Counted from the stretch's first letter, positions 1-53,445 are shown. The stretch: DNA of 64,000 nt from a phage (GCA_012401045.1 GCA_012401045.1_4704.1), one strand, 5' to 3'. The notes: a model not told the origin generated them from the letters alone. Numbers and translations: made by a program.

Positions 1-1674
1 GTAACGCATTGCCCAGCCGGTTTGTTCCCAGCTACCAGACAGAACACGATCGATGATTTCGTGACGAGCGACAACACGCTGAGACATCGTCATATCGGTA
101 CGGTCGAAGCTGTCTTCCCAAGCTTCTACGGTATCCGGGTTAGTGATGTTCATCATGTACAGATCGTCCATATCACGAATATCGTGACGGTGACCATCCT
201 GGTGGTTGTAGTGACCCAGCGGGATACGGTTACCGGTAGCGTAGACCAGCGGTTGGCCGTATTGATATTTCTTGCTGAAGCAACCCAGGGTAACATCATC
301 GAACGCACGGAAGAGGGCTTTGTAACCTTCGGAGATTTCACGGACTTCACCTTCAACTTTGCCCGTATAGATCTTCTCAGCCGCCGGGATCATACGCAGC
401 AGCCAGCTGTACTCACCTTCTTCCGGTACGTCGATAGAAATCAGCAGAGACGGATACAGTACCTGTTGCAGGAACTTGTAAATCTGCTCGTTGGTTTGAG
501 TAGACAGATCCAGCGGTGCGGTAACTTCCGGATCCAGTACCATCGCCAGAGCACCCGGGTTATGCGGACCAATACCACGGGCAGCGTTGCTGATTAAAGA
601 CTGTGCCCACGCCATACCGCTGTTCAGCGTAGCGATGGTGCCAATCAGACCCAACACGAAAGTGTTCGGTGTGAACGCATCCAGCTCCAGCGGGTAAGCG
701 CTGGTCATCACGTAACGCGGCTGGTATTGTACAGTCGGCGGTACCGGATAACCGTTAACCAGAACAGGGCCTTGGTTGAAGGTCGGGTTCTGCGGGCTGT
801 AAGTCAGGTCAATGTAACCGGTGGTGGCGACCAGACGCTGTTGACTATCGTAATCGCTCATCGCTTGACGGATGCGGTTAGAGATAGTTACAGTGATGTC
901 AGAACGCACAGGGTTACCAACAATATCGCTGTCCTGCATACCGCTGGTGTTGTACTGAACGCTGCTGATTGGCTGATCGCTTGCCATCATGCCCAGGTTG
1001 AACTGCGGCAGACCCAGTTTATCACCGAGACGGATTTCGATCGCGGTTTGGATTGCGTTATCTGCAGCAGACAGCAGGGTGGTTGCCAGATGCGCAGATT
1101 CAGCGGTGATTTCATTGGTCACCACAGCCAGACCAGCGATACGAACAGTACCGTTAGACTTACCGCCAATAGCTGAGTACATTGCCGCCATGACTTCGTT
1201 GATGAACGTACCGTTCAGGTTATCAACCCAGGTACGCGGTACCAGAATGTTACCATGCGGACCTTGTTCTTCACGACGCGGCAGCGGAGCCAGACCAGCA
1301 ACCAGCGGAAGCACATAACCAAAGAAGTGGTTATGGTCACCAACTTTTGCACCACTCATAACGACCAGGGTCGGATACGGTACGCTGTACTGGTTCGGGT
1401 CAACCGCAACAAAGATGAAGTCGTTTTTGAACTGGGTATCTTCCAGATATTTCTCCATCAGACGACGGAGATTCAGTACCTGCTCGGAGCCAGTATTACG
1501 GCTAATACGACGGCTCAGTGTACGGTTGATCGTACGCATCGTATGAGTTACTTTAGGCTGGCCAGCAAAATCTGCAGCGGTTTCCAGCGCCTCATCAGCA
1601 CGTTGTGCGGTGCGGGTTTCAGCTGCACGAATTTCTACATTATCGTTACCGTTATTACGTACGTCTAAGCCCAT
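1..1674 (-). CDS. chmA: Candidate chimallin (phage-nucleus shell protein), N-terminal 558 aa; the C-terminus runs off the window start
   Basis: The minus-strand frame is open from ATG 1674..1672 (SD AGAGGAA 7 nt upstream) to base 1. It is missing from the ORF track because no stop lies in the window. It starts MGLDVRNNGNDNVEIRAAETRTAQRADEALE. Codon bias is extreme (CGT, CTG, GGT, ACC, AAC). A TATATTACC promoter lies upstream and phuZ is ~8 kb away. Identity is inferred from size, expression signals and context, not from a motif. Confidence 0.6.
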   Translation of the reverse strand, partial: MGLDVRNNGNDNVEIRAAETRTAQRADEALETAADFAGQPKVTHTMRTINRTLSRRISRNTGSEQVLNLRRLMEKYLEDTQFKNDFIFVAVDPNQYSVPYPTLVVMSGAKVGDHNHFFGYVLPLVAGLAPLPRREEQGPHGNILVPRTWVDNLNGTFINEVMAAMYSAIGGKSNGTVRIAGLAVVTNEITAESAHLATTLLSAADNAIQTAIEIRLGDKLGLPQFNLGMMASDQPISSVQYNTSGMQDSDIVGNPVRSDITVTISNRIRQAMSDYDSQQRLVATTGYIDLTYSPQNPTFNQGPVLVNGYPVPPTVQYQPRYVMTSAYPLELDAFTPNTFVLGLIGTIATLNSGMAWAQSLISNAARGIGPHNPGALAMVLDPEVTAPLDLSTQTNEQIYKFLQQVLYPSLLISIDVPEEGEYSWLLRMIPAAEKIYTGKVEGEVREISEGYKALFRAFDDVTLGCFSKKYQYGQPLVYATGNRIPLGHYNHQDGHRHDIRDMDDLYMMNITNPDTVEAWEDSFDRTDMTMSQRVVARHEIIDRVLSGSWEQTGWAMRY

Positions 1675-1741: not shown

Positions 1742-1777
1742 CCTAGGTAATATAACCCTGAAATTTTTTTCAATATT
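1742..1777 (-). promoter_or_regulatory. Early-type promoter, copy 1
   Basis: The minus strand reads AATATTGAAAAAAATTTCAGGGTTATATTACCTAGG. The core TATATTACC (1754..1746) is 72 nt upstream of ATG 1674. It aligns position-for-position with the copies at 30706..30741 and 53410..53445. Confidence 0.7.
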
Positions 1778-25997: not shown

Positions 25998-28070
25998 ATG
26001 AGGCTTAAGAATAGCACGCCTCGCGCGATTTTTACGGGCTTTAAAGAGGGTCTTACCACGGATCCGGTTACAGCCCCAGAGATCACGCCCATTCACCTCC
26101 CGTATGTTTTCATTCAGGGTGGTCGTGGTAAAGAGGACACCTTGCTGTTAACAGGGGACGCCCTGTCTACAGTCTACGGTGAAGATATGCTGAACTACCG
26201 CAGTAAGTACGCTTCTCCAGCAACACTGATTGCTCGCCAGGCGGCTTCTACAGGTAGCGCGATCTTCACAAAACGTTTGGTTGCGCCGGATGCAACGGCA
26301 GCACGCATCCGTATCGGTGTTGAAGTGGTCGCCGATAAACTGGTCGTTTACCAGCGTAACGCTGACGGGTCCTTTATGAAGGACACCGACGGCAACAAAA
26401 TCCCTGACGGCGATAAAACCGTTGACGGGGTGAAAATGCGTTGGATTGTTAACCACGACAAAGATGCCGTAGCGCCTAACGCCTTCGGTAAAGATGAAGT
26501 GGTTATCGGACAAATGACCGCAGCTGATGGTACCCAGAGCAACTACTATCCTATTCTGGATGGAATGGTGAGCTGGCGTGGTGCCGAAGGGGACAACATC
26601 GGCTTACGTCTGGAAGCACCGACCGCGCTGAGCAGCAACCCTACCCGTACCGATATCATCGAACGTATCGGTGCTTTCCTGTACCGCATTCAGTTCGTGG
26701 AACGTAAGTCTTCACGAACTGCGCCGACGGTCATTCGTACGATCAGCGGTATGGAACAAGAAACCTTCGCGTTGCAGGAAGGTGTTATCCAGCCTGATGA
26801 CGAAACCGATCTGTCCTTCGGTAAAGTGGTCGTTGATGCCTACGAGTATAATGAAACGGGTAACACCCCGATCTTTGCTCCGATGGATCAGATGCATCTT
26901 TATCAGAAGAACATCGATGAAGTCGTCAAGAAGCTGTACGAATCTGAAAGCAAAGTTAACAAAGATCTGTTAACCGACGTTGAATTCGTCGAAGGTCAGA
27001 TGAACATCTTCACCGGTGTCGATTACAACGGCATCCCGTATCAAACCATCGAAGTTCTCGATGCGGATCAGGGCGGCGTCATCTTTGATGGTACCAGCAC
27101 CTTCTACGCAATTGATGGTAGCGACGGTGACGTCGACTGGGATACCTTCGACGCGTTAGCGAAACAGCAGTTCGAATCGTTCGGCAGAATGGGCGAAGAT
27201 CTGGAAGACATGGCTTTCTATCCGTTCTCCATCGTGTATGACATTGGTTACAAAGTCGACACGAAGAAAGCGATGGCAAACGTCTTGTCTCTGCGTCCGG
27301 ATGTCATGATCATTGCGTCAACCCATACCTGGAAGGGTGTGGAACTGAATGTCGATGAAGAAAGCTCCATGGGCGCGATGCTGCGTAACTACTATCGTCT
27401 GCATCCAGAAAGCGTGCTTTACAATACCCCGGCTTGCCGTGCTGCGGTATTCATGCAATACGGTGAAAGCATCGAAGCGCCAAGCCTGGGTAAAGTTCCG
27501 TTGACGCTGGAAGTTGCTAATAAACTTGCAACTTACATGGGTGCTTCGGATGGTGTTATCCGCGGTACCCGCATCGATAACAACCCCGGTAACGTTGTCA
27601 CAACGATGCGTAAAATCAACAAGACGTATCGTAACGCAACGGTCCGCGATCGTGATTGGGAAAACGGCTTGAACTATGTTCAGACCTACAACCGTAATTC
27701 CAACTTCTTCCCGGCTTGGGGCACGATCTACAATAACGACCGTTCGGTATGGCGTTCGTTGATCAACGTGATCATCGGTTGCGATCTGACTCGCGTGTGC
27801 TATCGTCTCTGGGCAGAAACCACCGGTACTACAGGAATGGATGAAACCCTGTTCCTGAAACTGATGGGCGAACGCTTCCTGGAATACACCACGGGCCGTT
27901 ACAACGACCATGTGACTGTTAAGGGACGTTTCTACCTGGATAAAGAAGACGGTTACAACGGCTTCAGCTATCACGGCGATATCAGCCTGATCGGCGATCC
28001 AGGCATGACCGTGGGTACGTTTACCATCACCGGGCTGCGTCGTAACACCGAAGCAGCAGAAGCGGCGTAA
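25998..28070 (+). CDS. Tail sheath protein (inferred)
   Basis: 690 aa with strong codon bias and SD AAGGAGAG. A 296-aa ORF follows 15 nt later. Size and order match phiKZ gp29/gp30 as I remember them. No diagnostic motif recognised. Confidence 0.55.
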   Translation: MRLKNSTPRAIFTGFKEGLTTDPVTAPEITPIHLPYVFIQGGRGKEDTLLLTGDALSTVYGEDMLNYRSKYASPATLIARQAASTGSAIFTKRLVAPDATAARIRIGVEVVADKLVVYQRNADGSFMKDTDGNKIPDGDKTVDGVKMRWIVNHDKDAVAPNAFGKDEVVIGQMTAADGTQSNYYPILDGMVSWRGAEGDNIGLRLEAPTALSSNPTRTDIIERIGAFLYRIQFVERKSSRTAPTVIRTISGMEQETFALQEGVIQPDDETDLSFGKVVVDAYEYNETGNTPIFAPMDQMHLYQKNIDEVVKKLYESESKVNKDLLTDVEFVEGQMNIFTGVDYNGIPYQTIEVLDADQGGVIFDGTSTFYAIDGSDGDVDWDTFDALAKQQFESFGRMGEDLEDMAFYPFSIVYDIGYKVDTKKAMANVLSLRPDVMIIASTHTWKGVELNVDEESSMGAMLRNYYRLHPESVLYNTPACRAAVFMQYGESIEAPSLGKVPLTLEVANKLATYMGASDGVIRGTRIDNNPGNVVTTMRKINKTYRNATVRDRDWENGLNYVQTYNRNSNFFPAWGTIYNNDRSVWRSLINVIIGCDLTRVCYRLWAETTGTTGMDETLFLKLMGERFLEYTTGRYNDHVTVKGRFYLDKEDGYNGFSYHGDISLIGDPGMTVGTFTITGLRRNTEAAEAA

Positions 28071-28085
28071 TGAGAGGAGTCCATA

Positions 28086-28976
28086 ATGCGTCCTGATAAT
28101 ACCCTACTCGGTGAACAGGGTGTTGGTGCTCTTAGCAACGCGGCTATGGTCGATATTCGTGCAGGTGCCCAAAACGGGTACATCAGCAATATCGGTACGT
28201 ACGTTGCTAACGCCAACTACATTCCGAACCAAATGTTCTGTCTCCTGCTGGAGGCACCACGTGGTTTCAACTATCTACCTAACCCGGATGTACAGATTGG
28301 TTATCTGAAGGCGTTGGTAGAAGAAGTTGCGCATTCGATTACCGGTCTGCAACGCGGATTGGAAGTTGAATTCGTTAGCGTCCCGGTTTCTGGTTCCGGT
28401 GAAATCCAGGAAGAAGTCTCTGACGTTAAACGTCCTCGCTCTAACCCGACTTTCGGGATCTATGAGAAAGAAGGTCGTTCCGTTAGTTACTTCCTGGAAC
28501 AATGGATCACGTATCTGTTGATGGATCCGGATGCCAAATACCCGATGTTGTCGTCTATCGTATCCACTGGTGGTCCAACCGACCTGCTGGCGGATTATCG
28601 TAGCGCAACAATGCTGTTCGTTGAGCCAGACCGCCAACACAAAAAAGTGGTTAACGCCTGGCTGTGCACGAACATGATGCCTCACGGTACCGGTGACTGG
28701 ACATCACGTCGTAACAAGAACGATGCGCCAAACGTGGTAGAATTGAGCATTCAGTTCACAGCGTTAACACAGACCAACTACGGCGTGCGTGCTTTTGCAC
28801 AACGTCTGCTGGATAAGATGAACCTGCTCAAAGTGAACCCGGATTTCCGTCCGGCTTATCTGAGCGACATCGATCCGGCTGTGGCAGCGCAGAAGGTTGG
28901 CTACACCTTCGACTTTGATAACAACGATACCTTTGAGGTACCGAATACTTATCAAAACGTAACACCTCGCGTGTAA
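28086..28976 (+). CDS. Tail tube protein (inferred)
   Basis: 296 aa with strong codon bias and SD GAGGAG, immediately downstream of the putative sheath gene. Confidence 0.5.
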   Translation: MRPDNTLLGEQGVGALSNAAMVDIRAGAQNGYISNIGTYVANANYIPNQMFCLLLEAPRGFNYLPNPDVQIGYLKALVEEVAHSITGLQRGLEVEFVSVPVSGSGEIQEEVSDVKRPRSNPTFGIYEKEGRSVSYFLEQWITYLLMDPDAKYPMLSSIVSTGGPTDLLADYRSATMLFVEPDRQHKKVVNAWLCTNMMPHGTGDWTSRRNKNDAPNVVELSIQFTALTQTNYGVRAFAQRLLDKMNLLKVNPDFRPAYLSDIDPAVAAQKVGYTFDFDNNDTFEVPNTYQNVTPRV

Positions 28977-29051: not shown

Positions 29052-29591
29052 TTACTGTTTGTTCGTGGCTTCACGAATGAAAATGACATCAGGATATTCT
29101 TGAGATTCAATGAATTCAGGATTACGATAACGACGAATATGACGCATCGTTGTACAAGCAAGTTTGTAAAGATGTTCCTCCTCACGTTGTGTTAATAACA
29201 TCAGTTGCGCGTCTGGAATCACGAATGGGAGTCTTTCATTCACGTATTCCCGAAGGTCATCGAGATCATCGTGATGAATGCCCTCTGAGAGCTTATATAA
29301 CGCTTCCAGCAATTCTAATCCACCGAACTGGTAACTTCCTATTGTCGTCTTAAACAATGCGCCAGAACGCGTGGTGGATGCTCTATCGGCGACATCGTAT
29401 TGTTCTAACATATATCCGTAGACCATGCTACGTCGATCCAGTGTATCCGTAACGAGATTACGCCACCGTTCCAGTCTTTCGAGCGCTTTGTCGATAGAGT
29501 AAACGATCATGCCATGTTCATCCAACTCTTCCGCAATACCCAATAGTTCATTGTTGTTAGGTTTTGCTGCACCGATAAGAAAAACACTCAT
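29052..29591 (-). CDS. Hypothetical protein (179 aa)
   Basis: Clean ORF with a stop/start overlap with the upstream gene at 29591. Confidence 0.7.
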   Translation of the reverse strand: MSVFLIGAAKPNNNELLGIAEELDEHGMIVYSIDKALERLERWRNLVTDTLDRRSMVYGYMLEQYDVADRASTTRSGALFKTTIGSYQFGGLELLEALYKLSEGIHHDDLDDLREYVNERLPFVIPDAQLMLLTQREEEHLYKLACTTMRHIRRYRNPEFIESQEYPDVIFIREATNKQ

Positions 29592-30004
29592 TACTCAAAC
29601 TCCTTATTCCAAAACTCGATTAATGAATCGAGCTGTTCCTTACTGGTTATCTCACCTCCCCTAACAAAATGAAATCGTTCTTGAATGGCGATCTTTTCAA
29701 GGATATCGGTAAGCAAATGACGGTGACAGAAATTTCCTGCAGGACAATAACACCCTAACACCACAACCGGATGGGAGAATAAAGCCAACCATTCCGGTGT
29801 ATGATCAACAAAGCTTTTGCGCATAAGCGCGTAGTAGCCTGTGGTATATTCATCCTCGGTTAACGTTTTTGATTTGATTCCTGTAACAAGTTCCCATGAA
29901 GGTGCGAAGAGTGGGTTACCTGTTTTCACCGTCGTGTCCAGTAGGAACGCTCGTGTGTCTGAAAGCCAACGATATTTGGCTAATTGAAGGGTGTATAAAA
30001 ACAC
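29591..30004 (-). CDS. DUF488/DUF4326-like protein
   Basis: 137 aa with a GTG start. LFAPSWELV...TEDEY...VVVLGCYCPAGNFCHRHLL matches the remembered DUF488 pattern (APS.eL ... LlC.E....CHR.l). Confidence 0.45.
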   Translation of the reverse strand: MFLYTLQLAKYRWLSDTRAFLLDTTVKTGNPLFAPSWELVTGIKSKTLTEDEYTTGYYALMRKSFVDHTPEWLALFSHPVVVLGCYCPAGNFCHRHLLTDILEKIAIQERFHFVRGGEITSKEQLDSLIEFWNKEFE

Positions 30005-30036
30005 AGCGCTAACCCCAAAGGATAAAAATAAAACCT

Positions 30037-30077
30037 TGACATAACCACCACCGCAACCCCATACAGGGCTACGGTGG
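30037..30077 (-). terminator. Terminator after the 159-aa gene, followed by TTATGTCA
   Basis: CCACCG (30048..30053) pairs with CGGTGG (30072..30077), with an inner CCC/GGG stem. The minus-strand downstream tract is TGGTTATGTCAAGGTTTTATTTTTA. Confidence 0.55.
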
Positions 30078-30107
30078 GGTCATACAGAGAGACGTGTTAA
30101 GTTACAA

Positions 30108-30587
30108 TCAGTCTTTCAGCAGCTCAGCTGCATACGCACTGATGTTGTCGCGAATATGCTTAACCTGAGTTGTTGGGAAAGATTTCTTATACGCGGTGGT
30201 CAGGCGTCCGTAAACCTGTTTCTTCTCGTTAGAGCCGAAACCAACTTCAGCGCTACGTTGAACCGTTGCGGACACAACGTCTTTGCCCAGCGGCAGGGTT
30301 ACAGAAACAACGTCAACCTGCTTGTTATCCGCCATGAACTGCGCGCCAACGCGACCTACCGCCAGACCATGAGCCAGACCGATATCGGTGGTCAGTTTCT
30401 GTGCTTTTTCCAGGATTTCTTTTTCTTCCGGCGTTACCAGAGTACCCAGGAAATCACTGCCTAACTTCTGGCTACCAGATTCGTCCAGTTTAATACCAGC
30501 GGCGATTTTATCAGAAAGAGCCTGAACTTCCGGACGTACGTTAGAAGTGGTTTCAGTCGCTACGGTGGTTTCTACAGCTTCAGACAT
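30108..30587 (-). CDS. Highly expressed early-type protein of unknown function (159 aa, acidic N-terminus)
   Basis: Strong codon bias like the shell gene. It is a monocistronic unit bounded by TATATTACC promoter copy 2 and a terminator. No motif recognised. Confidence 0.8.
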   Translation of the reverse strand: MSEAVETTVATETTSNVRPEVQALSDKIAAGIKLDESGSQKLGSDFLGTLVTPEEKEILEKAQKLTTDIGLAHGLAVGRVGAQFMADNKQVDVVSVTLPLGKDVVSATVQRSAEVGFGSNEKKQVYGRLTTAYKKSFPTTQVKHIRDNISAYAAELLKD

Positions 30588-30705
30588 GTTAATACTCCAA
30601 TTAGTTTTTTCGATCGATCAAAAGGATAAAATCAGAAGATTCTTTCTTCATAGGGAAAACACAAGTCGGTTAAGGTTTACTTCTTAAACTCCTTGCGTTC
30701 TATCA

Positions 30706-30741
30706 GTTAGGTAATATAGACCTCAACTTTTTTCCAATAAT
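30706..30741 (-). promoter_or_regulatory. Early-type promoter, copy 2
   Basis: The minus strand reads ATTATTGGAAAAAAGTTGAGGTCTATATTACCTAAC. The core (30718..30710) is 123 nt upstream of ATG 30587. The upstream half overlaps the stop of gene 30723..31523. Confidence 0.7.
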
Positions 30742-31523
30742 GCTGCAACGTTCCGCGCGAAACGAATTACCTTGTAATTGCGGGTCTGTTTGATATCTTC
30801 TTCCCCATCACTGTCACCTTCAGACGGATCTTCCCACATGAAGTCTTGTTCGTCCGCTTTCTGTAAGTAGCGGTATAACTGCACCATGCTGCGTGCGGTC
30901 GGAGAGATAGCGCGAAGCTCATCCAATTCTTCATCCGTGAGCAGAACATGCGGTGAACGCAGTGGTTCCATTGTTGTATTACACAACAGACGAATCAGCA
31001 GATCGACGCACGGAATAACCGAACCTGGTGAGGCGATTTCTGGGTGTAATGTATAACCCCAATATACGGTGTTAAAATACGTCAAAACAGCAGGTAGTGA
31101 CGGATGTTCCATCGCACGGCCAATTTGCTGTCTTACGATAGATGCACGATCGTTCAATACATCGAAAGTAATCTGCTGCGGTTCCATAACCGCAAGTGAA
31201 ATACCGTATGCGTCAGCCACACCCAGGATTTCATGAAGGGCCGAACGTTCTTCTTCGGTGGATATTGTCCCGATTGCCTTACGCCCTGCAAGGTCAATCA
31301 GCATCGGTGAAACAGCTTCTTTAACCGCATTAAAAGAAGCCTGGTAAGCGTGTTTGTGAATATACAGTGTCCACGCTAATGCGCGCTCAGCCGCATGAAG
31401 CAGATCGACATAAGACAGTTCTTGATGGCATGGGCCATACACACTCACAGCAAGCTTGGTGGCTTTCTCAGAGGCTTGCATAATAACATCTGGTGATTTA
31501 GGCATATCGCGTTCTTCTTGCAT
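30723..31523 (-). CDS. Hypothetical protein (266 aa)
   Basis: Clean ORF with an acidic C-terminal region. No motif recognised. Confidence 0.75.
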   Translation of the reverse strand: MQEERDMPKSPDVIMQASEKATKLAVSVYGPCHQELSYVDLLHAAERALAWTLYIHKHAYQASFNAVKEAVSPMLIDLAGRKAIGTISTEEERSALHEILGVADAYGISLAVMEPQQITFDVLNDRASIVRQQIGRAMEHPSLPAVLTYFNTVYWGYTLHPEIASPGSVIPCVDLLIRLLCNTTMEPLRSPHVLLTDEELDELRAISPTARSMVQLYRYLQKADEQDFMWEDPSEGDSDGEEDIKQTRNYKVIRFARNVAALLEKS

Positions 31524-31611: not shown

Positions 31612-31653
31612 ACGGCATAAAAAGTACCTCCTTACCCATGTGGGTAAGGAGGT
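31612..31653 (-). terminator. 13-bp terminator, followed by TTTTTATGCCGT
   Basis: ACCTCCTTACCCA tg TGGGTAAGGAGGT (31626..31653). On the minus strand this is followed by ACTTTTTATGCCGT (TATG at 31619..31616). Confidence 0.8.
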
Positions 31654-31805: not shown

Positions 31806-32615
31806 TTACCAATGATTAAAGCTGCCCGCTTTAACGACATCACAACGTAGGTGGTTACGTAACTGATCCAGGAAGACAACCGGACTGTCGCCAGACAACA
31901 TAGCCAGCGCGTGTTGGCCACCGGAACGAACAACAAGCTCATCGACCATTGGTGCTGTAATCGGGAGATCATACGCATCCATGATTGCTTTGGCTTCCTG
32001 TTCTACGTCTTTCTGGAACCCTTCCATCGTCGGAGAGTCATATTTGGTTGCAAACTCGATCCCAGGCAAGTTAACGTAATCGTAAGTCATGACACGGGTC
32101 ATAACACGACGGCGCTCACGTTGCCAGATCTGAGGATCGGTTAACGCGCGAACCGAAAAACACACGTTCACCAACGGCGTTTCAAAATCTTTACGTAATG
32201 GATCACCGTACGGCCCGCAAGGAATAACATCCCCCATCACCATCACGACAGGACGACCACGACGATCGCGTCCCGCTTCTTCTAACCAAATCTTAGAAAA
32301 GCAATGGCTTACCTTCGTTTCTTCGATTCGTAACGCTCGCTGCAAAAAGCTGGTTGCATCCTGACCGATCTCTGGTTTAGGGTGACCGTATTCACCTTTC
32401 AACGAACGATTGCGTGCGTTTGTTTGCAGTAAGCTGTTTTCCAGAAACAGCGGTTTCGAACGCTCAAGTTCGTAATATTCTTCGGTATTGTTAAAACAGT
32501 TAAATCCGCCGATAACACAGGTGTAGGCACCGTCAGCATTAGGACGGATAATACCTTTCTTATTCACACCAAGATAACTGGTGCAAACAAGATTACTAAT
32601 TGGTGGTTGCATCAT
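31806..32615 (-). CDS. Prohead (head-maturation) serine protease, T4 gp21 / phiKZ gp175 type
   Basis: LKGEYGHPKP aligns with T4 gp21 LGELNHPPR (catalytic His). CGPYGDPL aligns with HGPGDKL. CFSVRAL aligns with VSSRGL (catalytic Ser). 269 aa. Confidence 0.75.
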   Translation of the reverse strand: MMQPPISNLVCTSYLGVNKKGIIRPNADGAYTCVIGGFNCFNNTEEYYELERSKPLFLENSLLQTNARNRSLKGEYGHPKPEIGQDATSFLQRALRIEETKVSHCFSKIWLEEAGRDRRGRPVVMVMGDVIPCGPYGDPLRKDFETPLVNVCFSVRALTDPQIWQRERRRVMTRVMTYDYVNLPGIEFATKYDSPTMEGFQKDVEQEAKAIMDAYDLPITAPMVDELVVRSGGQHALAMLSGDSPVVFLDQLRNHLRCDVVKAGSFNHW

Positions 32616-34137: not shown

Positions 34138-35661
34138 TTACACCTCGCTAATCTGGATAACGTAAAGCTGCTGGGCCACGTAATCGGTGGTCAGATGCAT
34201 CGTTGCGATGGTCGCTGCTTCGAACACCGTGAGTTCAGGACGTTCACGCATAATCAAATCGATCTCATCGATGAGACGGTTAACGCCTTGAGCGTCTTCG
34301 TGATGCATGGTTTTCACGTACAGCGTACGGAAATACTGCTGGAAGTTAGCTACGTCGGTATCGGTAAGGGTAGCAACTTCACCACGTACGATTTCCATAA
34401 CCTTCTTACGGGTATCTTCATCGAGGTCCACTGTAATCAGGTCAGCAAATACGCCCTGCAATGCCAACGCGTATGCACGTAAGCGGTTTGCGGCCTGCTG
34501 ACTGGCTTTCATGTTGATGTAGTTACGGTAATGCTGCATGAAGCCTGCACCGTTAGCCAACAGCTCATCTTTACTGATGAGTTCACGTTCTAACAGGACA
34601 GCTGCGGTCAGTGCTTCCGGCGAACCACCTTCTTGCAGATAACCCATGTAGACATCTGCGTTAACGAAAATCGTCATCGTTGACGCATCTTCAGCACGTT
34701 GAATCTGAGAAGCCGACGGTGCAGAAAGAATCAGCTCACCACGCTCCATACGCAGGATACGATCACGACCGACGCGGGCCATCCCGTTGATCGCCGCAGC
34801 GCGAGCTTGTTGCATTTTAGCGCGGTAGTTTTCAAGCATCATGTCGTTGCCGTCCTGGATATCTTCCAGCAGGTTAACGGCCCACATATAGCAGAGGAAT
34901 GCAGGAGTTGCCGCAGCGCGGGAACCGTGGAATGCAACGTTATCGCTATCCGGATATGTAATCAGATAAGCGGTGTTGTTCGAAGAAGGAGCGGAACCAC
35001 GGAAGAAATAGTTGTAGATGTCTTCCAGTGCCTGATCGCTCATCCCTTCCGTTGCTTGCTGTACAAAACGATCCAGGTTTTCATTACCGGTATACAGCAA
35101 CGTACGCAGCTTATCGCCGGTGATAAACGCAAGCTTTTCGGTTGGGGTGAAATCGTTATTAATCGAAATCAAGCCATTGAGATCGTAATCGCTAACTAAG
35201 GCCTGGTATTCTTCGGAGTTATAAAACTCAGGGTAGTAACTCAGACTTACTGTCGGGATCAGTTTCGGTGCCAGGATGATCGAATCGATGCGTTTTTCCA
35301 GTTCCGGGTACAGTGCACGGCATTTCGGCAGGATGGTATTACGCGCCAACTCTTTGGCATACACCACTTTTTCCACCACGTCTTGAACTGCGGTCTGTAA
35401 AACTTCATCGTGGATATAAACCTCGCGTTCGCTGGCAGGTGCTACAGCGCCATCTTCGGTTTCATCAAGTGTTTCAGCAACAACCATACGTTCAGCACTA
35501 AGCTGCACCAACGCATCTGCGTCTTCCGGTGGCTGGTTCCAATGCATGGTTTCACAAACCGCGGCTAACGGCGTGCCCGGAATGGCTGCGACGATTTGAT
35601 TACGTTTGATAAACCCTTCGACAATGGGCTCAACAGCATAGACGGTTTTATTGGTGATCAT
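34138..35661 (-). CDS. Abundant hypothetical protein, probably virion/head-associated (context and codon bias)
   Basis: 507 aa with strong codon bias, lying between the protease and the RNAP genes. Confidence 0.7.
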   Translation of the reverse strand: MITNKTVYAVEPIVEGFIKRNQIVAAIPGTPLAAVCETMHWNQPPEDADALVQLSAERMVVAETLDETEDGAVAPASEREVYIHDEVLQTAVQDVVEKVVYAKELARNTILPKCRALYPELEKRIDSIILAPKLIPTVSLSYYPEFYNSEEYQALVSDYDLNGLISINNDFTPTEKLAFITGDKLRTLLYTGNENLDRFVQQATEGMSDQALEDIYNYFFRGSAPSSNNTAYLITYPDSDNVAFHGSRAAATPAFLCYMWAVNLLEDIQDGNDMMLENYRAKMQQARAAAINGMARVGRDRILRMERGELILSAPSASQIQRAEDASTMTIFVNADVYMGYLQEGGSPEALTAAVLLERELISKDELLANGAGFMQHYRNYINMKASQQAANRLRAYALALQGVFADLITVDLDEDTRKKVMEIVRGEVATLTDTDVANFQQYFRTLYVKTMHHEDAQGVNRLIDEIDLIMRERPELTVFEAATIATMHLTTDYVAQQLYVIQISEV

Positions 35662-52298: not shown

Positions 52299-52811
52299 TT
52301 AAACTTCTTCGTTTTCTGAACCTAATGATTCAGCATCTGGATCGTCAACAGGAATGGTTGCATCAAAATACCGTTTCGTATGCGTGGTTGTATATCCTAC
52401 GCTATCTGTGATGGAAATCGTAAACGTGACTTCCCTTGCACGGATTAAGCGTAGTTTATTCATGAAGTTACGGAACGGCATCGATCCCCGATTCAACTCC
52501 TTAATGACGTTTCCCCGAATACTGGAAATGTCTTTATTCGTTTTATCAGGGTGTCGTTTCTTCACATCACGCATATGTCGGGTAATATACGAATTGAGCT
52601 GATTTGCGCCGATCCCTCTCTCCGTATAAATCTGCAACAGGAACTCCGTAAGGAAATCCTGTCTACCCGTAGGCGTCCAGAAATTGTTACCGTGATTGTA
52701 GTTAGTCGCTCGTCCTCGATTGCTTTGAGGATTTTCATCATCGCTTTCATCACGACGCTTAAGCGGATTAATGCGTGCGCGGAAAGAGACTTCATTATAT
52801 TTATTTGTCAT
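52299..52811 (-). CDS. Hypothetical basic protein (170 aa; start at MTNKYNEV)
   Basis: ATGA overlap with the upstream gene at 52808..52811. Second gene of the promoter-copy-3 unit. Confidence 0.65.
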   Translation of the reverse strand: MTNKYNEVSFRARINPLKRRDESDDENPQSNRGRATNYNHGNNFWTPTGRQDFLTEFLLQIYTERGIGANQLNSYITRHMRDVKKRHPDKTNKDISSIRGNVIKELNRGSMPFRNFMNKLRLIRAREVTFTISITDSVGYTTTHTKRYFDATIPVDDPDAESLGSENEEV

Positions 52812-53323
52812 AATACACCAGTGTACTGACTGAGTGCGAAGGTTAGGAGTTCGCAACAGTCTCTCGCTAGTTTCCTTGTTTTGCGTAATCCATAAGCCGC
52901 ATCCAAATCGTCACGTTCCGCCAGCGCGTCTAACCACGTCGCAAGTATGCGTCCATACTCGATAACGTCACGCATGAGAACGTCGAACCGGATAACACGA
53001 CCATCGGCATCAGCAAGCCAACGATTGAACGTGATTTGTGGTGCTAGTATTGCATATGTTCTCTCCTCTAATGCGATTATGTTTATGTTGCCTTCGTTAT
53101 CGAACGCTTGATGCCAACGGCGAAGGTCAAGCATCAACGACTCAGCGTCCATATACCACAACGGTAAATACGTTTTACGTGCAACGCGTATATCGTAGAT
53201 GTTGTGAACCCAGGACGTTGTTTTGTAAAGCAACAAGAGTTCGTTTAACCGTTGCCTATCATCTTGAAACGTCTTCCTTTTATAACGTTGGAACGCACGC
53301 CTCAAGAAAAAGCGATGTAACAT
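52808..53323 (-). CDS. Hypothetical protein (171 aa), first gene of an early-type unit
   Basis: ATG 53323 lies 91 nt downstream of the promoter copy 3 core. Confidence 0.7.
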   Translation of the reverse strand: MLHRFFLRRAFQRYKRKTFQDDRQRLNELLLLYKTTSWVHNIYDIRVARKTYLPLWYMDAESLMLDLRRWHQAFDNEGNINIIALEERTYAILAPQITFNRWLADADGRVIRFDVLMRDVIEYGRILATWLDALAERDDLDAAYGLRKTRKLARDCCELLTFALSQYTGVL

Positions 53324-53409: not shown

Positions 53410-53445
53410 TGAAGGTAATATAGTCCTGTTATTTTTTTCAATACG
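53410..53445 (-). promoter_or_regulatory. Early-type promoter, copy 3
   Basis: The minus strand reads CGTATTGAAAAAAATAACAGGACTATATTACCTTCA, with the core at 53422..53414. Confidence 0.7.

What the first reader, a model, noticed from the sequence alone, without database searches (positions are those of the whole stretch)
30108..30587. A monocistronic, shell-gene-like expression unit encodes an unknown 159-aa protein
Promoter copy 2 is followed by a 123-nt leader, a 159-aa ORF and a terminator at 30048..30077. The ORF has the same extreme codon optimisation as the putative chimallin gene, so it is predicted to be among the most abundant early proteins. The sequence (MSEAVETTVATETTSNVRPEVQALSDKIAAG...) has an acidic, probably disordered N-terminus and no motif I recognise. 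An abundant early protein of unknown role in a nucleus-forming phage could be a shell-associated, DNA/RNA-binding or anti-defence factor.
Basis: inference. Interest (0 to 1): 0.65.

Follow-up and report, generated by a model that had tools for sequence, protein, structure and literature searches.

The report
Chimallin-style early gene, orphan-fold abundant protein
This is a real, very strongly expressed early gene of a Goslar-like nucleus-forming phage; its small protein has no known relatives outside these phages, matters for replication in a related phage, and turns up in large amounts in purified Goslar particles, but what it does is still unknown.

Summary
The 159-aa ORF at 30108..30587 (-) follows a 31-nt promoter motif shared with the chimallin gene, a 123-nt leader and a good Shine-Dalgarno site. 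A stable hairpin follows it. Its codon adaptation (CAI 0.637) tops 50 window ORFs, level with chimallin (0.622).

The window is 98.4% identical to phage Goslar. The protein is identical to Goslar_00221 (GenBank), which is HOV27_gp214 (RefSeq). It belongs to a family seen here only in jumbo phages of known chimallivirus lineages: phiKZ gp186, PhiPA3 gp222, 201phi2-1 gp283, RAY gp173. The AlphaFold2 model is confident (pLDDT 92) but matches no solved structure.

Published data on orthologues:
- phiKZ gp186 mRNA matches chmA in level and kinetics over the first 10 min.
- Antisense knockdown of phiKZ gp186 scores +++ for plaque loss.
- PhiPA3 gp222-GFP is diffuse in the cytoplasm.
- A 2026 preprint finds Goslar gp214 at more than 200 copies per purified virion.

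"Early and abundant" is supported; "shell-associated" and "nucleic-acid-binding" are not. My best reading is a high-copy, non-enzymatic early cytoplasmic protein that is also carried in virions. The function is unknown. The gene is already annotated, but these datasets use different gene numbers.

The parts
30709..30739 (-). Early-type promoter motif, copy 2 (TATTGGAAAAAAGTTGAGGTCTATATTACCT; core TATATTAC at 30711..30718). It overlaps the stop codon of the upstream gene.
   Evidence: Three copies of the 31-nt motif occur in the window and 0 are expected by chance. Copy 1 precedes the chimallin gene. The sequence is identical in Goslar. An A-run plus TATATTAC or TATATAAC also lies 74-109 nt upstream of the orthologues in RAY, Eowyn, SA002 and sm033.
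30588..30710 (-). 123-nt leader with the Shine-Dalgarno sequence GGAG at 30595..30598. It contains a 16-codon upstream ORF (30601..30651) that has no Shine-Dalgarno site.
   Evidence: Read from the sequence. No unusual RNA structure: z -0.72, and the SD region is unpaired in the centroid fold. No significant Rfam match. 100% identical to Goslar.
30108..30587 (-). 159-aa ORF. It equals Goslar_00221 (GenBank, QBO64013.1) and HOV27_gp214 (RefSeq, YP_009820905.1), and belongs to the phiKZ gp186 family.
   Evidence: CAI 0.637. All 8 nucleotide differences from Goslar are synonymous. AF2 pLDDT 92.2. HMM and hhalign link to phiKZ gp186.
30044..30080 (-). Stable stem-loop 28 nt after the stop codon; a terminator and/or 3'-end stabiliser.
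   Evidence: dG -35.7, z -5.2. The differences from Goslar fall in the loop or turn Watson-Crick pairs into G-U pairs. A strong hairpin follows the stop codon directly in 10 of 11 orthologous loci.
30020..30035 (-). U-rich tract (GGUUUUAUUUUUAUCC) 9 nt downstream of the hairpin.
   Evidence: Read from the sequence. The consensus terminator scan did not call the site, because the U run is not adjacent to the stem.
1745..1775 (-). Promoter motif copy 1, upstream of the chimallin gene (chmA, about 1..1674 on the minus strand, running off the window start).
   Evidence: chmA has CAI 0.622.
53413..53443 (-). Promoter motif copy 3, upstream of a 171-aa ORF (52808..53323) that is not codon-optimised.
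   Evidence: That ORF has CAI 0.193.

Best explanation
What it is: a self-contained early expression unit (chmA-type promoter, unstructured leader with a good Shine-Dalgarno site, codon-optimised ORF, 3' hairpin). It encodes Goslar gp221 (GenBank), which is gp214 (RefSeq). The protein belongs to the phiKZ gp186 / PhiPA3 gp222 / 201phi2-1 gp283 / RAY gp173 family.

The protein: a compact alpha/beta domain behind a short disordered acidic tail, with three N-terminal helices, a three-stranded sheet and a C-terminal helix. Others have shown an AlphaFold 3 prediction of it as a homodimer. It has no solved structural relative. Only two Gly and one Arg are (nearly) invariant, so it has no catalytic-looking set of residues.

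Proposed working, with the status of each step:
1. The injected virion RNA polymerase transcribes the gene from the first minutes. This is inferred from the promoter it shares with chmA, and is shown for the phiKZ orthologue's mRNA.
2. It is translated at very high rate. This is inferred from codon bias, which in this window tracks the copy number of known high-copy proteins.
3. The protein stays soluble in the cytoplasm rather than joining the shell or entering the nucleus. This is shown for the PhiPA3 and phiKZ orthologues.
4. It acts stoichiometrically as a non-enzymatic binding protein needed for productive infection. The need is shown for phiKZ by knockdown. The binding mode is inferred.
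5. A large pool, between about 580 and 2140 copies per particle by label-free MS, is incorporated into or tightly bound to progeny virions. This is shown only as co-purification in Goslar. The protein would then already be present when the next infection starts.

The binding partner is not known.
For: Identity and family:
- Searches give the Goslar match and the two gene numbers.
- An exhaustive HMMER search found 56 representatives, all 144-187 aa apart from one 37-aa fragment.
- Both tblastn searches hit only jumbo phages of known chimallivirus lineages.
- The family profile hits a single phiKZ ORF, gp186, at E 2.8e-12. hhalign gives probability 96.8%.
- BFVD fold hits at E <= 0.001 are 14 small viral proteins; every one with a name in the table is an uncharacterised jumbo-phage protein.

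Expression architecture:
-.
- It is conserved in other phages: own promoter motif in 5 of 11 loci, hairpin after the stop in 10 of 11. RAY gp173 has the top CAI of its 13 neighbours.
- 8 of 8 substitutions against Goslar are synonymous, and the hairpin changes preserve pairing.

Experiments by others:
- phiKZ gp186 mRNA over the first 10 min reads 0.4/174/467/903/1749/1971. chmA reads 0.5/166/435/927/1770/1831 (PMC10914614 supplement).
- gp186 protein abundance is log10 10.02, in the upper range for phage proteins, and it sediments in the top fractions.
- ASO knockdown of gp186 scores +++ for plaques and +++ for ChmA level (PMC12571901 Table 1; preprint).
- PhiPA3 gp222 is biotinylated by both ChmA- and RecA-miniTurboID, and its GFP fusion is diffuse cytoplasmic (PMC10643120).
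- RAY gp173 was detected in crude lysates with 58-61% sequence coverage (PMC6690015).
- Goslar gp214 ranks third among ten unknown proteins at more than 200 copies per virion. The three high-copy proteins from that list that were GFP-tested were confirmed as virion-packaged.
Against: Against packaging:
- The same Goslar virion preparation also contained chimallin, ChmC and PhuZ, so large non-virion assemblies co-purify. gp214 itself was not tested by GFP or by an injection assay.
- 201phi2-1 gp283 lacks the 'identified using mass spectrometry' note that its neighbour gp280 carries. phiKZ gp186 is not flagged as structural.
- The PhiPA3 GFP fusion did not form capsid-like or bouquet-like puncta.
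- There is no propeptide: the prohead-protease motif [SAG]-x-E is not enriched in the N-terminal tails, 12 members observed against 9.1 expected.

Other limits:
- No Goslar expression value for this gene could be read.
- In phiKZ the protein signal is about 60-fold below ChmA.
- No partner or activity is known.
Confidence: 0.4

Rival explanations
1. Purely cytoplasmic early factor. The protein acts only inside the infected cell, for example as a binder of a host or phage partner during takeover or nucleus establishment. Its presence in Goslar virion preparations is then adventitious, through sticking to or co-sedimenting with particles or debris.
For: Diffuse cytoplasmic GFP fusion in PhiPA3. 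Top-of-gradient sedimentation in phiKZ. Not flagged as a virion protein in 201phi2-1 or phiKZ. Early chmA-like kinetics. The Goslar preparation demonstrably contained non-virion assemblies.
Against: Chimallin is probably the most abundant phage protein in the cell, yet it is not among the proteins above 200 copies per virion, while gp214 is. A small soluble dimer should be depleted by PEG precipitation and CsCl banding, not enriched. All three high-copy proteins from that list that were tested were truly packaged.
Confidence: 0.3
2. Mainly a head morphogenesis or internal head protein (scaffold-like or associated with the inner body). Its essential role would then be in building infectious particles, with the early promoter only pre-loading the pool.
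For: High copy in Goslar virions without being resolved in the symmetric cryoEM model. The gene lies next to or near the Peptidase_S80 head-maturation protease: immediately downstream in Vibrio phage sm033, and one gene downstream in this window. In this window, as in RAY, it also sits in the same block as the packaged proteins gp208/gp209. The protein is small and has been modelled as a dimer.
Against: It uses an early promoter and shows chmA-like kinetics in phiKZ, not late expression. It has a globular alpha/beta fold rather than an extended helical scaffold. It has no PF12699 or DUF7941 domain and no propeptide or cleavage-motif enrichment. In phiKZ and PhiPA3 the gene lies far from the protease. 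phiKZ gp186 is not among the genes whose knockdown left the phage transcriptome 'hardly altered'; those are gp120, gp155 and gp177.
Confidence: 0.15
3. One reading: a nuclear-shell-associated protein, or a DNA/RNA-binding protein working at or inside the phage nucleus.
For: Shared promoter and codon bias with chmA. The PhiPA3 orthologue is labelled by ChmA-miniTurboID in 2 of 3 trials and by nuclear RecA-miniTurboID in 1 of 3. The sheet region of the Goslar protein has net charge +4.
Confidence: 0.07

Closest known systems
phiKZ gp186 / PhiPA3 gp222 / 201phi2-1 gp283 / Erwinia phage RAY gp173 (PHROGs 9746, 16459, 32697, 28629; all 'unknown function')
   Same: Homologous by HMM, profile-profile and predicted-fold comparison. 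Similar length, 134-170 aa. Found here only in jumbo phages of known chimallivirus lineages. A terminator-like hairpin follows the gene directly. In phiKZ the gene is expressed early and matters for replication.
   Different: The Pseudomonas members are shorter, lack the acidic N-terminal tail, sit about 20 kb from the head protease, and in phiKZ lack their own TATATTAC promoter within 400 nt. High-copy virion association has been reported only for Goslar.
The chimallin (chmA) expression unit of the same phage
   Same: The same 31-nt promoter motif, a leader of roughly 70-120 nt with a strong Shine-Dalgarno site, and the same extreme codon adaptation. In phiKZ the two mRNAs have the same level and kinetics.
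   Different: The proteins are unrelated. ChmA builds the shell lattice, while the orthologue of this protein is diffuse in the cytoplasm. A third gene with the same promoter is not codon-optimised (CAI 0.193), so the promoter alone does not imply high abundance.
High-copy packaged proteins of large myoviruses: phiKZ/Goslar PF12699 'inner body' proteins, Goslar DUF7941 proteins, and T4 internal proteins (the last from general knowledge)
   Same: Hundreds to thousands of copies per purified particle, not resolved in the symmetric capsid/tail model, and possibly available at the moment of injection.
   Different: No PF12699 or DUF7941 domain. No long propeptide and no enrichment of the protease motif. 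An early rather than late promoter. Packaging not yet verified.
PhiKZ014 (early, abundant, ribosome-binding protein of phiKZ)
   Same: An early, abundant protein of unknown ancestry in a nucleus-forming phage, identified in the same Grad-seq study.
   Different: There is no sequence relationship to gp014: the family profile hits only gp186 in the phiKZ genome. gp186 is about zero in the ribosomal fractions. In the laboratory strain PAO1 the gp014 deletion phage still propagates, whereas gp186 knockdown abolishes plaques.

Membership tests
phiKZ gp186 protein family (PHROG 9746/16459) | Significant sequence or profile similarity over most of the length | tested here: met
   phrog_9746 at E 1.1e-9; all 55 aligned members hit it. 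The family HMM hits phiKZ gp186 at E 2.8e-12 as the only hit in that genome. hhalign probability 96.8%. Goslar and phiKZ queries hit the same Phabio locus.
phiKZ gp186 protein family (PHROG 9746/16459) | Same predicted fold and size | tested here: met
   BFVD Foldseek hits at E <= 0.001 are 14 small viral proteins; every one named in the table is an uncharacterised jumbo-phage protein (Eowyn, PhiEaH1, Aeromonas D6, KTN4, Phabio). RSF1 follows at E 2.9e-3. TM-scores reach 0.80.
phiKZ gp186 protein family (PHROG 9746/16459) | Restricted to chimallin-encoding jumbo phages | tested here: inconclusive
   All 34 + 63 INPHARED records with a match are jumbo phages of known chimallivirus lineages. Co-occurrence with chmA was not checked record by record. 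The 56 metagenomic representatives carry no context. The family is listed as 'non-core' in PMC12571901.
Chimallivirus early (virion-RNAP) transcription unit | AT-rich element plus TATATTAC promoter consensus, as upstream of chmA | tested here: met
   A 31-nt motif is shared with the chmA promoter and 0 copies are expected by chance. That TATATTAC is the phiKZ early-promoter consensus is my recollection of Ceyssens et al. 2014, not checked here.
Chimallivirus early (virion-RNAP) transcription unit | Transcript present within minutes of infection and independent of the phage nucleus | not tested
   This is shown for the phiKZ orthologue. The Goslar data exist (Armbruster et al., Suppl. Table 2), but the HOV27_gp214 row could not be read.
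Intrinsic (hairpin + U-tract) terminator | GC-rich stem-loop immediately followed by a U run | tested here: inconclusive
   The hairpin is very stable, z -5.2, and its position is conserved in 10 of 11 phages, many of them with adjacent U runs. In this window the U tract starts 9 nt after the stem, and the consensus scan did not call it.
Virion structural or internal head proteins of chimalliviruses | Detected in purified virions | not testable with these tools
   Literature only. Goslar gp214 is at more than 200 copies per virion, but chimallin and PhuZ were also present in that preparation. 201phi2-1 gp283 and phiKZ gp186 are not flagged as virion proteins.
Virion structural or internal head proteins of chimalliviruses | PF12699 or DUF7941 domain, or an N-terminal propeptide with S/A/G-x-E protease sites | tested here: not met
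   No Pfam hit above the cut-off. Tails average 10 aa, and the motif is present in 12 of 55 against 9.1 expected.
Nuclear-shell-associated proteins (ChmB-ChmE) | Localises to the ChmA shell in infected cells | not testable with these tools
   Literature only. The PhiPA3 orthologue is scored 'diffuse cytoplasmic', and it is not one of the six shell proteins gp2, gp61, gp63, gp64, gp148 and gp375.
HU/IHF-like DNA-binding proteins (my own lead from the helix/sheet/helix pattern) | HU/IHF fold | tested here: not met
DNA-mimic anti-restriction proteins (Ocr-like) | Strongly acidic surface | tested here: not met
   The Goslar protein has net charge -2 and pI 5.75. The family median net charge is 0, range -4 to +7.

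The most novel reading that the evidence does not exclude
The family could be a new kind of 'carry-over' early factor specific to nucleus-forming phages. It would be an orphan-fold dimer packaged at about a thousand copies, delivered with the genome, and immediately re-synthesised from a chmA-type promoter. Its job would lie in the window between injection (the EPI vesicle) and a working nucleus, for instance handling newly made chimallin or other cargo in the cytoplasm.
Probability: 0.2. Interest if true: 0.75.

Novelty: already known. Interest (0 to 1): 0.5.

Why it matters
Nucleus-forming phages are a major model for viral compartmentalisation, and most of their early proteins have no known role. 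This protein now has four separate lines of published experimental data, from three phages:
- chmA-like early expression and high abundance in phiKZ;
- strong knockdown phenotype in phiKZ;
- cytoplasmic localisation, with proximity labelling by ChmA and RecA fusions, in PhiPA3;
- high copy number in purified Goslar virions.

These sit under different gene numbers (gp186, gp222, gp214/gp221). None of the papers I read connected the Goslar protein to these orthologues. Putting them together gives a small, soluble, well-folding, experimentally tractable candidate for an unassigned step of the infection cycle. Its fold has no solved relative.

Tried and rejected
2. DNA mimic or nucleic-acid coating protein. 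Rejected on charge.
3. Propeptide processed by the head protease. No enrichment of [SAG]-x-E, and the N-terminal tails are short.
4. Oligomer inferred from the gradient peak in fraction 3. Dropped, because soluble ChmA and the tail sheath also peak in the top fractions, so the position says nothing about size.
5. 'Knockdown does not disturb the phage transcriptome, hence a late or virion role'. Dropped after reading the published version. The genes with that phenotype are gp120, gp155 and gp177, not gp186, and gp186 is also not among the strong transcriptional hits.
6. Reading Goslar RNA-seq values. The supplement uses RefSeq tags, so the row I retrieved (HOV27_gp221) belongs to a different, late gene.
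7. Weak hits that I take to be chance: DUF1016_N at E 0.035, PADLOC PDC-S02 at E 0.014, Rfam PhotoRC-I at E 0.066 on the opposite strand, MinD in the PDB at E 0.034.
8. The search for related loci with the family alignment failed because no stretch was conserved enough. The afdb50 fold library was unavailable.
9. The leader RNA shows no special structure.
10. One literature search on 'KZ186' matched only DOI strings.

Full report
**Where the window comes from.** The region 29500-31500 is 98.4% identical to Escherichia phage vB_EcoM_Goslar, a nucleus-forming jumbo phage. Window coordinate x corresponds to about Goslar x+171226. The ORF is Goslar_00221 (QBO64013.1), annotated 'hypothetical protein', and the protein is 100% identical. 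The chimallin gene (Goslar_00189) lies at window ~1..1674 on the minus strand and runs off the window start.

**The observation.**
- The 159-aa ORF is at the stated coordinates.
- TATATTAC at 30711-30718 leaves exactly 123 nt before the ATG.
- That core sits in a 31-nt motif, TATTGRAAAAAANNNNAGGNNTATATTACCT, with three copies in the window: before chmA, before this ORF, and before a 171-aa ORF at 52808-53323. None is expected by chance even with three mismatches.
- Two other bare TATATTAC octamers lie inside genes and lack the upstream part.
- The leader has a GGAG Shine-Dalgarno site and no unusual folding (z -0.72).
- After the stop codon comes a very stable hairpin (dG -35.7, z -5.2), then a U-rich tract 9 nt later. 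The simple terminator scan missed this site.
The z-score is 5.4 against the remaining 48 ORFs.
- Those next three are the tail sheath, the tail tube, and the homologue of phiKZ gp177 (RefSeq gp209). All are high-copy proteins, so codon adaptation in this phage does track copy number.

**Selection.**
- Between the window phage and Goslar, all 8 substitutions in the ORF are synonymous.
- The promoter and leader are identical.
- The six changes in the hairpin fall in the loop or turn Watson-Crick pairs into G-U pairs.

**Family.**
- Pfam, NCBIfam and PADLOC give nothing meaningful. PHROGs places the protein in phrog_9746, function unknown.
- The word-indexed protein search found only the near-identical cluster.
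- The exhaustive HMMER search found 56 representatives at E<1e-3, all 144-187 aa apart from one 37-aa fragment. I aligned 55 sequences, including the window protein, as A1.
- tblastn with the family consensus hits Erwinia (RAY, Ea35-70, Simmy50 and others), Xanthomonas, Burkholderia, Ralstonia, Klebsiella, Serratia and Salmonella jumbo phages.
- The A1 profile hits one ORF in the whole phiKZ genome, gp186, at E 2.8e-12; hhalign gives 96.8%.
- phiKZ gp186 in turn reaches Phabio, at the same locus the Goslar protein hits, and 201phi2-1 gp283.
- PhiPA3 gp222 is annotated as their homologue. RAY gp173 is the Erwinia member.

**Structure.**
- AlphaFold2 on A1 gives pLDDT 92.2 and pTM 0.73. The model has a disordered tail (1-17), helices 19-31, 44-50 and 53-87, strands 93-100, 103-115 and 123-134, and a helix at 139-157.
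- BFVD returns 14 hits at E <= 0.001; every one named in the table is an uncharacterised jumbo-phage protein.
- Only M1 and G127 are invariant, with G78 and R111 nearly so. Family net charge is near zero.
- This is an orphan fold with no catalytic signature.

**Conserved gene architecture.** I compared 11 orthologous loci.
- Five have an A-run plus TATATTAC or TATATAAC 74-131 nt upstream: this window, RAY, Eowyn, SA002 and sm033.
- Ten have a strong hairpin, usually with a U run, right after the stop codon.
- RAY gp173 has the highest CAI of its 13 neighbours, 0.564.
- In sm033 the gene lies immediately downstream of the Peptidase_S80 head-maturation protease, and in this window one gene downstream of it. 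In RAY and RSF1 it lies within three genes of annotated virion-structural genes. In phiKZ and PhiPA3 it sits elsewhere.

**What others have measured on orthologues.**
1. phiKZ expression. RNA-seq over the first 10 min gives gp186 0.4/174/467/903/1749/1971 and chmA 0.5/166/435/927/1770/1831. Neighbours gp053 and gp055 reach only about 500 and 330 (PMC10914614 supplement).
2. phiKZ protein. gp186 abundance is log10 10.02 against 11.78 for ChmA. It sits at the top of glycerol gradients and is about zero in the ribosomal fractions and the pellet.
3. phiKZ knockdown. Antisense oligomers against gp186 score +++ and ++ in the preprint. In the Nature paper the gene scores +++ for plaque/CFU effect and +++ for ChmA level, and is listed under 'non-core genome, uncharacterized'. 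It is in neither the 'strong transcriptional effect' group nor the 'hardly altered' group.
4. PhiPA3. gp222 is biotinylated by ChmA- and RecA-miniTurboID, and its GFP fusion is 'diffuse cytoplasmic' (PMC10643120).
5. RAY. gp173 and Deimos-Minion gp179 were seen by MS in crude lysates at about 60% coverage.

**The numbering trap and the virion result.** GenBank and RefSeq number Goslar genes in opposite directions. Goslar_00221 is HOV27_gp214. ChmA is 00189/gp246, PhuZ is 00201/gp234, the tail tube is gp217 and the sheath gp218. With that key, the 2026 Goslar virion preprint becomes relevant.
- Label-free MS of CsCl-purified virions lists gp214 third among ten unknown-function proteins above 200 copies per particle. 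It falls between gp23 (~2140) and gp22 (~580).
- It is not in the atomic model, and it was not followed up.
- The preprint shows an AlphaFold 3 prediction of it as a homodimer.
- The three high-copy proteins from that list that were tested were truly packaged.
- The preparation also contained chimallin, ChmC and PhuZ.
- 201phi2-1 gp283 and phiKZ gp186 are not flagged as virion proteins in their records.

**Verdict.**
- The expression unit is real, and the 'early and abundant' inference is well supported.
- The shell and nucleic-acid ideas are not supported.
- My best reading (about 0.4) is a high-copy, non-enzymatic early cytoplasmic protein, needed for productive infection, that is also carried in virions.
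- The main rivals are a purely cytoplasmic factor whose virion signal is adventitious (0.3) and a head-morphogenesis or internal head protein (0.15).
- The gene and family are already in the databases and in several screens, so the finding is not new as an object. The value here lies in joining the scattered data.

Noticed in passing
window 29591..30004 (-): The gene immediately downstream of the terminator hairpin encodes a 137-aa protein matching Pfam DUF488-N3a ('Active DUF488-N3 subclade') at E 1.7e-9, above the curated cut-off. It is annotated only as hypothetical in Goslar.
   Followed up: partly
window 53413..53443 (-) and ORF 52808..53323 (-): A third copy of the chmA-type promoter motif drives a 171-aa ORF with one of the lowest CAI values in the window (0.193). 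The promoter class and codon optimisation are therefore separable.
   Followed up: partly
window 30601..30651 (-): The 123-nt leader contains a 16-codon upstream ORF (MKKESSDFILLIDRKN) that ends 13 nt before the main ATG. It has no Shine-Dalgarno site and is identical in Goslar. It is probably not translated, but this was not examined.
   Followed up: no
window 30044..30080 (-) compared with Goslar (L001): Six of the 16 differences between the two phages in this 801-nt stretch cluster in the hairpin. They are either in the loop or convert G-C/A-U pairs to G-U pairs, so the stem is preserved.
   Followed up: yes
whole window / Goslar records MK327938.1 and NC_048170.1: GenBank (Goslar_00NNN) and RefSeq (HOV27_gpNNN) gene numbers run in opposite directions, and both are used as 'gpNNN' in papers. 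ChmA is gp189 or gp246, and this gene is gp221 or gp214. This makes it easy to miss the link between datasets.
   Followed up: yes
window 25998..28070 (+), 28086..28976 (+), 34138..35661 (-): After this ORF and chmA, the highest CAI values belong to the tail sheath (0.466), the tail tube (0.443) and the phiKZ gp177 homologue (0.439; RefSeq gp209). gp209 is reported at more than 200 copies per virion. Codon adaptation tracks copy number in this phage.
   Followed up: partly
window 31626..31653 (-): A canonical terminator-like site (12-bp stem, then ACUUUUU) lies in the 282-nt gap between the head protease gene (31806..32615, Peptidase_S80) and the upstream neighbour of the ORF (30723..31523). 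Late transcription from the protease block probably stops before this region.
   Followed up: no
L017 (Vibrio phage sm033) 1203..1365: In sm033 the orthologue follows the head-maturation protease directly. The spacer contains a terminator-like hairpin and then an A-run plus TATATAAC motif. This is an insulated unit like the one in this window.
   Followed up: partly
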